A stretch of DNA of 63,627 nucleotides, the filler included, from Licmophora abbreviata (lineage: Eukaryota), in the NCBI GenBank assembly GCA_900291995.1. It is 10 parts of 10 records of this genome, joined end to end, with 100 filler letters (N's around TTAATTAATTAA, not from the genome) between each part and the next. Parts side by side here need not be neighbours in the genome. Positions count along the whole stretch, not along the records: positions 9,513 to 35,197 come from OLMU01004636.1; 9 more parts are not named here. One strand, given 5' to 3'. Shown here piece by piece: positions 12,710 through 16,022 of the stretch. The notes under the pieces were generated by a model. That model did no database searches. It was not told the DNA's origin and saw only the letters and a list, made by a program, of their open reading frames with translations. The translations under genes were made by a program, and so were the position numbers. The first letter of the stretch is position 1. Every line of letters begins with the position of its first letter.

Positions 12710-14438
12710 TCATGCACCGATCGATGGTTGATTACCTTCCGCCTCTTCATCGTCTTCGACAATTGAGCTCTTGGCGAGCGTTAGACACGGTCCACACTTG
12801 AGTCCCTGCTCGTGATCGTCCAGCCTTATGGTGATGAGCGTTGAAAGGATACTGCTGACGGTTCCCGCCAGAAAGCACGCAGCCATCCCGGCCACTGCAT
12901 CCGACCCCGCCAAGGATCCGAAGTTCTCTCCCACGTACGTATAGAGCAGTCCACTCCCTATAGTCCCCATCAGTCGTCCCAGTGCATTACTCATGTAGTA
13001 AAATCCAACACTGACAGCCACCTTATCCGATTTGGCGTATTTGACAACCAAGTAGGAATGAATCGATGAGTTTACGGCAAAGATGACAGCAAACGAAATG
13101 ATCACAGTAATGATCCACGCTAGCATGGCTGATTCATCGTGATCCTCAAAGGACTGTGAGAATGCCAAGACAGCGGCCATGACCGCAGTGGGGATGCAGT
13201 TGATGGCATTCCAAAGGATTTCCGTCAGTTTGTTAGGTGGTCTGGTGGCATAGACGACAGATAATCGTTGTGAGACGACGACAACCACATCCATCGCTAC
13301 ATCTAGTCCCTGCTACTCACGTTTGTCGCAAAGGCCCCGTCACCAGTTGAGGTGTCCAGCTCTGCACTTGTCCATACAAGATAATGTAACCTCCTAGAAA
13401 GGCTCCAACGACCACACGATCCAATCCAAGTCCACCACAACCACCACCCGGGTTGATGTTCGCACATAGATCGAGAGCCTCGTCACATACGGCGTTGGTA
13501 ACGCACTCGTCATTGGCATTGCATGTGTCTACCCCCAGTCCCGCACAGTCCGGGCTGCGCAGAAAGAACGGTAGCGGCACTTCAAACCAAAAGTCTCGCG
13601 AGGCAAACAGAAAGAGTCGTGCGAGCGATAAAATGTTGAGATTGTAATTGTCCATGACAAAAATCTCCCTCCATGAGGCATTCTTCGTCTTGGCCGTTCC
13701 CAGGTTCTTATCCAACCGAAGGATTACCCATGGCATGGCCAAAAGTATGAGTCCCATCATGACTCCCAGTGCCAGTTCATAGCTGACCGTGATCAAGGCA
13801 CTGCCTAGAAAGTATCCGACACCCTTCAACGAGTTTTTCCATCCCGTAATGAGCGATACGAGCTTGAACAACTGCGTGCTGCGTTCCTCGGGTGTCACAA
13901 GTTTCGTCACCGTCTTGCCTCCCAATTTTGTAAGATCCTTTGCGACGCCGGCCAGCAACTGTGCAAACGTAACATAGATTATGCTCTGCGTCTTGTTCCA
14001 GCTGTCCTGCCAGCCAAACAACATGCCATATGCTCCTAGCTGCAGAGATAATCCCAGAATGAGCGTAAACCGGATACCCCACTTGGCCCCCATGACACCG
14101 GCCGCCAGATTCGTCACGACACCGGCCAATTCGTAGAGAGTAAACATGACTGCCACTTCGAATGCACTAAAGGACTTGTTGTAGGCGTGTAAGAGTACAA
14201 TCATACGGATCGCACCATCAGTAATGGTAAAAAGAAGGTATGAAGATGAAATGATGACAAAGGGGCGCAGGGCTTCGCTCGTGGCAGCCTCCATGAAGGA
14301 TTGATGGGCGGGCTGTTCTTCCGACGTTTCGCCCTCTTGCCCGGCGGAGTTGGGACTCTTGCCATCATGGTGTGCTTTGGAGGGTATGTCGTCTTCCATG
14401 AATGAAACATTCTCGCTATTGTCAGCTTCTAATGTCAT
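12710..14438 (-). CDS. arsJ: ArsJ-type organoarsenical (1-arseno-3-phosphoglycerate) efflux MFS transporter; exons 14438-13321 and 13241-12710
   Basis: Motifs matching bacterial ArsJ as recalled: FTITDGAIRM, LYELAGVVTNL, AGVAKDLTKL, LITGWKNSLKGVGYFLG, LSLARLFLFASRDFWF, FAVNSSIHSYL, VGFYYMSNALGRLMGT; 79-nt GT-AG intron 13242-13320. Confidence 0.88.
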
Positions 14439-14966
14439 GGTACTTGGATATCTGAGAAGGGACTTTCTTCCTTGTCTTGTCACGTCAGTCGCCTTTTTCC
14501 CACTTTGAGGATCGAACTGAATCTCGACTGAATCTTGGGTTTGATGTTTCGATTTTTTGTCGTTTCTCTTCCCAGTTAGACTACAACACAGTGCAGTCAC
14601 ACCTGTTCAAAATGAAGCACGAGGAGAGAGGAAAAGTACTGTTGTCGCCAAGGAGCACTTCGCAAGGAATAGCATCGCCTCTGCCAACACAATGCATCCT
14701 CGAAACAAACAAGGTTCGAAACTGCAATCTGGAAACAAAAAAACCGCGTCCTATTTTTGTCCAAATTTTGGATGTCGTTTAAACCAAGATGACTTTAACA
14801 CGTTTTAATATTAGCGCATCTTCCTAGTGCGACATAGAATCTTCGAAACAACGTGGAATGGTGAAACCGAAAAAGATATCGGATTGCGATCCTCTCGCCA
14901 CCTTCACTCTCAACTCTCGTGCGTTGGAGCCTTCACGACAACGACTGACAGCCTCCTATAATCACC
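14439..14966. promoter_or_regulatory. Divergent promoter region shared by arsJ and GAPDH, with tandem YGAATCTH (PSR-like) motifs
   Basis: Head-to-head starts about 530 nt apart; TGAATCTC 14518-14525, TGAATCTT 14529-14536, AGAATCTT 14836-14843. Confidence 0.6.
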
Positions 14967-16022
14967 ATGGTCAAGTGCGCAGTCAATGGTTTCGGCCGCA
15001 TCGGCCGTTTGGTCTTTCGCTATGCATGGGACGATCCGACTCTCGAGATTGTCCATGTGAACGATCTCTGCTCCTGCGAAAGTGCCGCGTACCTCGTCCA
15101 GTACGACTCTGTGCATGGCACCTGGGACAAGACTGTCGAAAAGAAGGAAGACAGCAGTGGTTTCACTGTCGACGGAACTCTCGTCACTTTCAGTTCCGAA
15201 AAGGACTTTACGCAGGTCGACTATGCCGCCATGGGAGTCGAGCTCGTCATGGAGTGCACGGGCAAGTTCTTGAAGGTCGCCACGTTGCAGCCCTATTTTG
15301 ACACGTGCGGTGTCAAGCAAGTCGTCGTCAGCGCTCCCGTCAAGGAAGCTGGCGCCTTGAACGTAGTCTTGGGCTGCAATCATACCAAACTGAGTAACGA
15401 AACGACGCTCGTGACGAACGCCTCCTGTACTACCAACTGTCTGGGGCCTGTTGTCAAGGTGATTCAGGAGAATTTTGGTATCAAGCATGGCTGCATCACC
15501 ACTATTCATGATGTGACTGGTACGCAGACCATTGTGGATATGCCCAATACCAAAAAGAGTGACTTGCGACGTGCCCGCAGCGGCATGGTCAATCTCGTTC
15601 CGACCAGCACCGGCAGTGCGACTGCCATTGTCGAGATTTATCCCGAACTCAAGGGCAAACTAAATGGACTGGCGGTCCGAGTGCCACTGCTCAATGGTAG
15701 TCTGACAGATTGTGTCTTTGAAGTGAACAAGAAAGTAACGAAGGAAGAAGTCAATGCCGCCTTAAAGGCGGCGTCCGAGAGCGGGCCTTTGAAGGGCATT
15801 TTGGGCTATGAAACGAAACCCCTCGTGTCGACCGACTACACCAACGACACGCGCAGTAGCATCATTGATGCTCTTTCCACCCAAGTGATTGACGATACTC
15901 TGATCAAGATCTATGCGTGGTATGACAATGAAGCTGGATACTCCAAGCGCATGGCGGAATTGTGTCACATTGTAGCGGCCATGAACATTACCAAGACGGA
16001 ATCGGAGTTCAAGTATGAATGA
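14967..16022 (+). CDS. gap: ArsJ-associated (Gap3-type) glyceraldehyde-3-phosphate dehydrogenase, cytosolic, intronless
   Basis: [17 protein letters not shown] and WYDNE motifs; the segment [14 protein letters not shown]...DLRRARS...[10 protein letters not shown]...[18 protein letters not shown] resembles ArsJ-associated/Gap3 enzymes rather than eukaryotic GapC; no targeting peptide. Confidence 0.9.

What the first reader, a model, noticed from the sequence alone, without database searches (positions are those of the whole stretch)
14516..14843. Tandem phosphate-starvation (PSR-like) motifs in the arsJ/GAPDH shared promoter
Seen: ACTGAATCT occurs twice with 11-nt period (14516 and 14527, about one helical turn), 80-100 nt upstream of the arsJ ATG. 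A third GAATCT lies at 14837, upstream of GAPDH. Established (from recall): the Phaeodactylum Myb factor PtPSR recognises YGAATCTH, and arsenate enters cells through phosphate transporters. Inference: the module is wired into the host P-starvation regulon instead of bacterial ArsR control, since no arsR is present in the window.
Basis: partly seen in the sequence, partly recalled or inferred. Interest (0 to 1): 0.72.

Follow-up and report, generated by a model that had tools for sequence, protein, structure and literature searches.

The report
Phosphate-starvation switch on diatom arsenate genes
A short DNA word that diatoms appear to use to switch genes on when phosphate runs low sits, doubled, in front of a bacteria-type arsenate-export gene pair and recurs there in many other diatoms, suggesting they prepare to expel arsenate whenever they scavenge for phosphate.

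Summary
The pair is real: ACTGAATCT at 14516 and 14527, both YGAATCTH. The third site (14837) misses that consensus. Alone the repeat is weak evidence; comparison makes it strong.

Across 18 non-redundant diatom-like arsJ loci, the 500 nt upstream hold 33 YGAATCTH against 1.3 expected, and GAATCT ranks first de novo. All 6 with a divergent GAPDH carry a close pair. In this genome, tandem sites peak at an 11-12 nt period (26 vs about 6), and clusters mark GDPD, Na/Pi, SPX, chromate-transporter and GARP-Myb genes. The Phaeodactylum orthologue (J23598) is induced log2 +5.6 under P starvation.

Against: J23598 is absent from the SPX-knockout gene list, Phaeodactylum arsJ was not identified, there are no RNA data here, and the PSR paper was not readable (motif letters recalled). 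The missing-arsR argument carries no weight in a eukaryote.

Verdict: a conserved, probably PSR-type element wiring GAPDH3/ArsJ to phosphate starvation (about 0.75). This scan earlier noted Pho-box wiring of the same module in a bacterium (unchecked).

The parts
12710..13241 (-). arsJ exon 2 (C-terminal part of the ArsJ MFS exporter, with stop)
   Evidence: NF033734 positions 277-373; splicing gives one open frame of 549 aa
13242..13320 (-). 79-nt GT-AG intron in arsJ (shows a eukaryotic, domesticated gene)
13321..14438 (-). arsJ exon 1 from the first in-frame ATG; carries the Cys-rich loop seen in diatom ArsJ proteins
   Evidence: NF033734 positions 2-266; 67-82% identity to diatom proteins among the 120 listed; alignment
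14439..14966 (.). 528-nt divergent intergenic region (two 5' leaders plus promoter)
   Evidence: no Rfam match at E<=1
14482..14487 (-). TGACGT (bZIP/CRE-like word, label recalled), 44-49 nt upstream of the arsJ ATG; possible second input
   Evidence: sequence; 8 vs 2.5 expected in the 18 orthologous upstreams; weak
14518..14525 (+). YGAATCTH site 1 (TGAATCTC) of the tandem element
   Evidence: conserved word
14529..14536 (+). YGAATCTH site 2 (TGAATCTT), 11-nt period with site 1
   Evidence: 11 is the modal period genome-wide and among orthologues
14806..14813 (.). TAATATTA palindrome, role unknown
   Evidence: 4 vs 0.3 expected in the 18 orthologous upstreams; weak
14836..14843 (+). Off-consensus site AGAATCTT, about 130 nt upstream of the GAPDH ATG; possible weak GAPDH-side site
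   Evidence: fails the Y position; AGAATCT is 5 vs 1.65 expected in orthologous upstreams, inconclusive
14967..16022 (+). ArsJ-associated GAPDH (GAPDH3/gap3 type), 351 aa, intronless
   Evidence: NF033735 479 bits, over cut-off 450; 86% identical to P. tricornutum B7GC94 = Phatr3_J23598

Best explanation
The repeat is a two-site binding element for the diatom phosphate-starvation Myb factor (PSR/PHR, GARP class), with the sites one helical turn apart on the same DNA face. Shown: conservation of the word, its position upstream of arsJ, the 11-12 nt spacing preference, clusters at phosphate genes, and P-starvation induction of the GAPDH orthologue in Phaeodactylum. Inferred: when phosphate falls, PSR binds the pair and induces arsJ, and probably the divergent GAPDH3 through this pair or the weaker site at 14836. 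From established knowledge of the family: induced phosphate transporters also admit arsenate; GAPDH3 converts it with glyceraldehyde-3-phosphate to 1-arseno-3-phosphoglycerate; ArsJ exports that. The cell would therefore arm arsenate export in anticipation, triggered by low phosphate, not by sensing arsenic.
For:: 15 of 18 diatom-like arsJ loci have at least one YGAATCTH within 500 nt upstream, 9 of 18 have two or more, 8 of 18 a pair within 35 nt; 33 sites vs 1.26 expected. GAATCT is the top 6-mer (40 vs 4.4; 16 of 18). 0 of 10 other loci have a site; 33 of the 49 sites in these loci fall in the two 250-nt bins before the ATG; all 6 loci with divergent GAPDH have a same-strand pair (periods 32, 22, 12, 11 and 11, 9, 11); flanks are Y in 34 of 40 and H in 37 of 40; motif-bearing rows interleave with named centric and pennate diatom proteins; background promoters in this genome have a site in 8 of 69, two in 1 of 69, a close pair in 0 of 69; 46 tandem pairs vs 19 for an equally frequent control word; period 11 in 15 vs about 3; clusters at Na/Pi (L041), SPX (L054), GDPD (L058), a choice-of-anchor-I gene (L035), a chromate transporter (L026, near-identical 11-nt pair) and a SHAQKYF-class Myb (L172). 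J23598 log2 +5.64 / +4.19 at 48 / 72 h without P; +2.31 in a second study; a Phaeodactylum chromate transporter +4.22 / +2.75.
Against: J23598 and the chromate transporter J48511 do not appear in the SPX-knockout differential list, whereas three canonical targets do. J23598 also rises under N deprivation (log2 +1.32). Phaeodactylum arsJ was not among the listed hits (120 of 1359 and 120 of 269). Its probable neighbour of J23598 (Phatr2_49905, identity unknown) is not induced (0.12 / -0.41). 3 of 18 orthologous loci lack the site. Only 5 of 29 distinct tandem loci examined have a recognisably phosphate-related Pfam family nearby. 4 of 11 diatom-type Na/Pi, SPX and GDPD loci have no site, and none of 9 weak PhoX-like loci has a close pair. 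Orthology of L172 to PtPSR was not established. The YGAATCTH letters are recalled; the paper was not readable.
Confidence: 0.75

Rival explanations
1. The element is real but is read by another factor (for example the second GARP-like Myb, L176) or responds to another cue such as arsenate, general nutrient stress or growth arrest; the overlap with phosphate genes is partial.
For: J23598 is missing from the SPX-knockout list and is mildly N-inducible. Most tandem loci in the genome sit by kinases, HSF factors, transporters or unknown genes. Two SHLQKY-type Myb genes exist. Related AGATT(C)-type cores are shared by many plant GARP factors (recalled).
Against: The densest clusters found lie at GDPD, Na/Pi, SPX and the L172 Myb. 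P induction of J23598 is far larger than N induction. The de novo flanks match the recalled PSR consensus.
Confidence: 0.13
2. The wiring is as proposed, but its main purpose is phosphate economy, not arsenic: GAPDH3 is a cytosolic isoform that keeps lower glycolysis running at low phosphate, or the pair moves phosphoglycerate-type compounds, with arsenate export as a side activity. This can hold together with the regulatory claim.
For: J23598 is listed as cytosolic and reaches a signal of about 300,000 without P. 8 of 18 diatom-like loci have at least 1.4 kb upstream of arsJ with no GAPDH in it. In Phaeodactylum the gap beside J23598 is only 1,759 nt, tight for a 1.65-kb arsJ plus promoter.
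Against: Both genes match the ArsJ-module models. Chlamydomonas arsJ and pgk3 mutants are arsenate-sensitive, and the genes co-occur in green algae. Divergent linkage is kept in 6 of 18 loci plus this window, and in Mayamaea the two genes have adjacent locus tags.
Confidence: 0.2
3. This copy is a chance duplication, or lies in the transcribed leader of arsJ and has no promoter role.
For: 17 similar short repeats occur in the window. About 17-21 of the 46 genome-wide pairs are expected by chance. The pair is only 78-97 nt from the ATG, beside an A/C-rich stretch on the arsJ strand, and the start of transcription is unknown.
Against: The same word, often with the same period and strand, recurs at this position in diverged diatoms; L098 has an 11-nt pair with an almost identical spacer. 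Orthologous sites also occur 78-120 nt from the ATG. The 11-nt period is not a codon repeat and no in-frame ATG lies upstream.
Confidence: 0.07

Closest known systems
PtPSR (Phatr3_J47256) recognition motif and regulon, Phaeodactylum tricornutum (Sharma et al. 2020; not readable here)
   Same: Word YGAATCTH (letters recalled; recovered de novo); several copies upstream of P-induced genes, as other papers describe for PSR targets.
   Different: Here the target is a bacteria-type arsenate module, and there is a preferred 11-12 nt direct-repeat spacing that I did not see described in the passages read. Binding is untested. Sharma's gene lists may already include J23598.
GAPDH-ArsJ arsenate efflux pair of bacterial ars operons (Pseudomonas aeruginosa; Chen et al. 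2016, seen only as described in PMC7826186)
   Same: Both genes match the NCBIfam module models.
   Different: Divergent nuclear genes with an intron and a Cys-rich loop; no ArsR; a eukaryotic Myb-type element upstream.
Green-algal ArsJ-GAPDH3-PGK3/4 neighbourhood (Foflonker and Blaby-Haas 2020, PMC7826186)
   Same: Eukaryotic, probably horizontally acquired pair kept side by side; arsJ mutant is arsenate-sensitive.
   Different: The main text has no hit for diatom, stramenopile, starvation or depletion. The high-GC loop-less pairs in my set lack the motif. No PGK lies beside the pair among the ORFs listed.
Cyanobacterial P-limitation stimulon (Nodularia spumigena, PMC9846622)
   Same: ArsJ-associated GAPDH and arsJ are induced by P limitation (log2 up to 2.41 and 1.20).
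   Different: Bacterial operon context with ArsR and a phosphate-binding protein gene; different regulator and cis-element.

Membership tests
PSR-type phosphate-starvation element | Matches YGAATCTH | tested here: met
   Sites 14518 and 14529 match; 14837 does not. Consensus letters are recalled and independently recovered.
PSR-type phosphate-starvation element | Enriched and conserved upstream of the orthologous gene | tested here: met
   33 vs 1.26 expected; 15 of 18 loci
PSR-type phosphate-starvation element | Same word clusters at phosphate-acquisition genes of the same genome | tested here: met
   3 of 11 diatom-type Na/Pi, SPX, GDPD loci have three or more sites, 4 have one, 4 have none; background 1 of 69 with two sites
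PSR-type phosphate-starvation element | Downstream genes induced by P starvation | tested here: inconclusive
   Met for the Phaeodactylum GAPDH orthologue; no data for arsJ or for this organism
PSR-type phosphate-starvation element | Dependence on the SPX-PSR circuit | tested here: inconclusive
   J23598 is absent from the SPX-knockout list; psr-knockout data were not readable
PSR-type phosphate-starvation element | A PSR orthologue exists in the genome | tested here: inconclusive
   L172 is a SHAQKYF-class Myb with four GAATCT cores upstream; no match to B7G3R5 among 20 of 150 relatives looked up; PF14379 not found
PSR-type phosphate-starvation element | Direct binding by PSR | not testable with these tools
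   needs EMSA, ChIP or DAP-seq
GAPDH-ArsJ arsenate efflux module | ArsJ-associated GAPDH subfamily | tested here: met
   NF033735 479 bits, cut-off 450
GAPDH-ArsJ arsenate efflux module | Adjacent intact ArsJ | tested here: met
   NF033734 is the only NCBIfam match for both exons (251 and 95 bits, each under the 400 cut-off; the whole protein was not scored); frame intact after a 79-nt intron
GAPDH-ArsJ arsenate efflux module | Confers arsenate resistance through 1-arseno-3-phosphoglycerate export | not testable with these tools
   shown for bacteria and genetically for Chlamydomonas, not for diatoms in anything read
ArsR-controlled ars operon | arsR linked to the genes in an operon | tested here: not met
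   Divergent, intron-bearing genes; 5 of 5 ArsR-family matches lie on other, 60-64% GC contigs

The most novel reading that the evidence does not exclude
Diatoms as a group have placed a horizontally acquired arsenate-export module, together with a chromate-family transporter, under their phosphate-starvation master regulator, through a phased 11-nt tandem element. One of the most strongly P-induced Phaeodactylum genes, long filed as a glycolytic GAPDH, would then be an arsenate-handling enzyme. P-starved diatoms would return arsenic to seawater as arsenate by a pre-armed route that needs no reduction or methylation.
Probability: 0.45. Interest if true: 0.72.

Novelty: new variant of a known kind. 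Interest (0 to 1): 0.57.

Why it matters
Low phosphate raises arsenate uptake. A paper on Aureococcus noted that no metal-detoxification transcripts had been seen induced by low P in Thalassiosira pseudonana or Emiliania. A conserved starvation element on GAPDH3/arsJ offers a hidden route, masked because the enzyme is annotated as ordinary glycolytic GAPDH. It is directly testable in Phaeodactylum with existing psr mutants. It would change how P-starvation transcriptomes are read (glycolysis versus detoxification), bear on arsenic speciation in low-P seas, and supply a compact P-inducible, possibly bidirectional promoter. The 11-12 nt spacing is a separate, testable clue to how diatom PSR binds DNA.

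Tried and rejected
RNA evidence: no RNA holder was listed. Laying three runs gave 12 short contigs from one run and none from two; one contig covers 14459-14603 without differences, which says nothing on expression or start site.

The tool's reversed-pattern control (0 pairs) was set aside as too lenient and replaced by an equally frequent word.

A second arsJ and GAPDH3 in the assembly (L048, L002) were set aside: 61-66% GC, beside acr3, apparently bacterial. Two Na/Pi and three GDPD matches on 59-65% GC contigs were dropped for the same reason.

PhoX search gave 9 weak partial matches with no close pairs. PF14379 was not found, and its control did not ring anywhere. PtPSR orthology could not be fixed. 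Phaeodactylum arsJ could not be identified. No Rfam match. An N-terminal coding origin for the repeat was rejected (no in-frame ATG, period 11). An initiator-type reading (TCAGT on the arsJ strand, recalled) was dropped because only GAATCT and its two flanks are conserved.

Rows dropped before the main count: 24 of 52 clusters had under 300 nt upstream; one representative was used per remaining cluster. Five of 74 background genes were removed because they were the query genes or had been fetched for holding a pair, and one 63% GC stretch was skipped. The tree is the quick version.

Full report
OBSERVATION. ACTGAATCT occurs twice in the window, at 14516 and 14527 on the + strand. Each copy contains YGAATCTH (14518, 14529). 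The third site at 14837 reads AGAATCTT and fails the Y. The pair lies 78-97 nt before the arsJ ATG (14438, minus strand) and about 440 nt before the GAPDH ATG (14967). Within the window alone it is only mildly unusual: 21 YGAATCTH vs 17.5 expected, 17 comparable short repeats, and a pair within 15 nt in 8 of 200 simulations.

THE GENES. The plus-strand gene passes the cut-off of the ArsJ-associated GAPDH model (479 vs 450 bits). The minus-strand gene matches ArsJ in two exons, separated by a 79-nt GT-AG intron with an intact 549-aa frame. Named close relatives are diatom proteins, and a quick tree places the window among rows named for raphid pennate genera, without strong support. The assembly also holds 60-66% GC contigs with a bacterial-type arsJ, acr3, GAPDH and all 5 ArsR-family matches. 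These look like co-assembled bacteria. The absence of arsR beside a spliced nuclear gene is expected and proves nothing.

CONSERVATION, THE DECISIVE TEST. A metagenome scan returned 80 of 141 arsJ loci. They form 52 clusters. 24 had under 300 nt upstream and were dropped; 18 were classed as diatom-like (Cys-rich loop, GC under 58%) and 10 as other. The 500 nt upstream of the 18 hold 33 YGAATCTH in 8,473 nt, against 1.26 expected from the rest of the same loci. 15 of 18 have a site, 9 have two or more, and 8 have a pair within 35 nt. The 10 others have none. Ranking all 6-mers without prior, GAATCT comes first (40 vs 4.4, in 16 of 18). Its flanks are C/T in 34 of 40 and non-G in 37 of 40, so the recalled consensus re-emerges from the data. 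33 of the 49 sites in these loci lie in the two 250-nt bins before the ATG. All 6 loci with a divergent GAPDH carry a same-strand pair, and L098 has two clusters, one nearer each gene. Motif-bearing rows interleave with named centric and pennate diatoms. Start codons were assigned mechanically, and species identity of the loci is inferred from the tree only.

IS IT A GENERIC PROMOTER WORD? No. Among crudely called genes in about 220 kb of this genome, 13 of 74 had a site. After removing the two query genes and three fetched for holding a pair, 8 of 69 had one, 1 of 69 had two and none had a close pair (Fisher p about 1e-8 to 1e-6 against the orthologues).

SPACING. The genome holds 46 same-strand pairs at periods 9-15, of which 15 are at period 11 and 11 at period 12. 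Periods 16-37 average 2.95 each, with no peak at 22. An equally frequent control word gives 19 pairs, 1 at period 11. Among orthologues 11 is also the commonest period (3 of 11). This fits two protein units on one face of the helix; that reading is inference.

WHAT ELSE CARRIES IT. Of 11 diatom-type Na/Pi, SPX and GDPD loci, 3 carry three or more sites (L041; L054, mostly in the first intron; L058), 4 carry one and 4 none. Of 29 distinct tandem loci examined (30 of the 46 matches were fetched), 5 have a phosphate-related family nearby: purple acid phosphatase (sites inside the gene), GDA1 nucleoside phosphatase, GDPD, a choice-of-anchor-I protein (alkaline-phosphatase-like by recall) and a chromate-family transporter whose pair is nearly identical to ours. 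Others lie in coding sequence or beside kinases, HSF factors and unknown genes, consistent with roughly 40% of pairs being chance. A SHAQKYF-class Myb gene (L172) has four GAATCT cores in about 80 nt upstream. It is a candidate self-activating PSR, but orthology was not established.

EXPRESSION IN A RELATIVE. The Phaeodactylum protein P0156 is 86% identical and is B7GC94 = Phatr3_J23598; it also passes NF033735. In the S1 dataset of PMC5825098 it is induced log2 +5.64 and +4.19 without P (row 54 of 6,016), while GapC1, GapC3 and GapC4 fall. In PMC12168105 it is +2.31. A chromate transporter there is +4.22 / +2.75; its orthology to L026 was not tested. Against: J23598 rises +1.32 without N. It and the chromate transporter are absent from the SPX-knockout list of PMC8233357, in which three canonical targets appear. 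The gene probably beside J23598 is not induced and is of unknown identity, and Phaeodactylum arsJ was not found among listed hits. No expression data exist here for this organism or for any diatom arsJ.

MECHANISM. Shown: a conserved, positioned, phased word, shared with phosphate genes, and P induction of the GAPDH orthologue. From family knowledge (as described in PMC7826186): GAPDH3 forms 1-arseno-3-phosphoglycerate and ArsJ exports it; Chlamydomonas arsJ mutants are arsenate-sensitive. Inferred: PSR binds the pair and arms arsenate export as phosphate transporters are induced (confidence 0.75). In this window the pair is nearer arsJ, so whether it also drives GAPDH is open. Rivals are another factor or cue (0.13), a phosphate-economy function for the same wiring (0.2, not exclusive), and chance or a leader location (0.07).

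WHAT IS IN PRINT. The pair is described in bacteria and green algae; PMC7826186 has no hit for diatom, stramenopile, starvation or depletion in its main text. P induction of the pair appears in a Nodularia table. J23598 is described as a cytosolic glycolytic GAPDH. Searches for arsJ + GAPDH + diatom (1 unrelated paper), arsJ + algae + eukaryot + phosphate (10 of 11 listed), PtPSR or YGAATCTH (20 of 33 listed, none with the motif letters), GAATCT + diatom (20 of 110) and diatom P transcriptomes with arsenate or PSR (30 of 162) showed no paper linking diatom arsJ/GAPDH3 to PSR. The library lacks most subscription papers, and the PtPSR paper with its supplements was not readable; it may already list J23598 as a motif-bearing target.

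WHAT I SAW OF EACH PAPER. Passages: PMC7826186, PMC9846622, PMC4109616, PMC2173943, PMC7283521, PMC13701856, PMC8301168, 10.1101/257790, 10.1101/484824, 10.1101/2025.08.30.671211. Passages plus supplement rows: PMC5825098, PMC12168105. Supplement rows only: PMC8233357 (one file unreadable). Term search with no hits: PMC12396336. Nothing (recalled or second-hand): Sharma 2020, Chen 2016.

VERDICT. A real, conserved regulatory element. Both the motif and the module are of known kinds; their coupling across diatoms and the 11-12 nt spacing were not found in the literature searched. New variant of a known kind, interest 0.57.

Noticed in passing
L026:1142-1159 (G000:C1597): A nearly identical 11-nt tandem lies about 130 nt upstream of a chromate-family transporter; a Phaeodactylum chromate transporter is strongly P-induced. 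May be a second oxyanion-export arm of the regulon.
   Followed up: partly
L172 (G000:C2628), about 290-370 nt upstream of the ATG: SHAQKYF-class Myb gene with four GAATCT cores upstream; candidate PSR with self-activation. The related L176 has no YGAATCTH in 3.1 kb.
   Followed up: partly
L054:260-512 (G000:C864): Four YGAATCTH sites lie inside what appears to be the first intron of an SPX gene, suggesting an intronic enhancer.
   Followed up: no
L035:1474-1520 (G000:C3287): Three sites in a short divergent promoter between a choice-of-anchor-I gene and a P-type ATPase.
   Followed up: no
window 13440-13580 (minus strand): Diatom and related ArsJ proteins carry a Cys-rich loop of about 40 residues (about six conserved Cys) that the bacterial-type and loop-less algal proteins lack; function unknown.
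   Followed up: no
window 14858-14860: An out-of-frame ATG 109 nt upstream of the GAPDH start opens a 147-codon overlapping frame; the GAPDH transcript probably starts downstream of it, or it acts as an upstream ORF.
   Followed up: no
L048, L002, L182 (G000:C5143, C7297, C5144): The assembly contains high-GC, apparently bacterial contigs with arsJ, acr3, an ArsR-family gene and a GAPDH; co-assembled bacteria can confuse copy counts.
   Followed up: partly
upstreams of L072-L135: Other words mildly enriched upstream of diatom arsJ: GCGAAAG (6 vs 0.4), TAATATTA (4 vs 0.3), TGACGT (8 vs 2.5).
   Followed up: no
L139-L151, L106: High-GC loci keep the divergent arsJ/GAPDH3 layout but lack the motif, so the linkage may be older than, or independent of, this regulatory word.
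   Followed up: no
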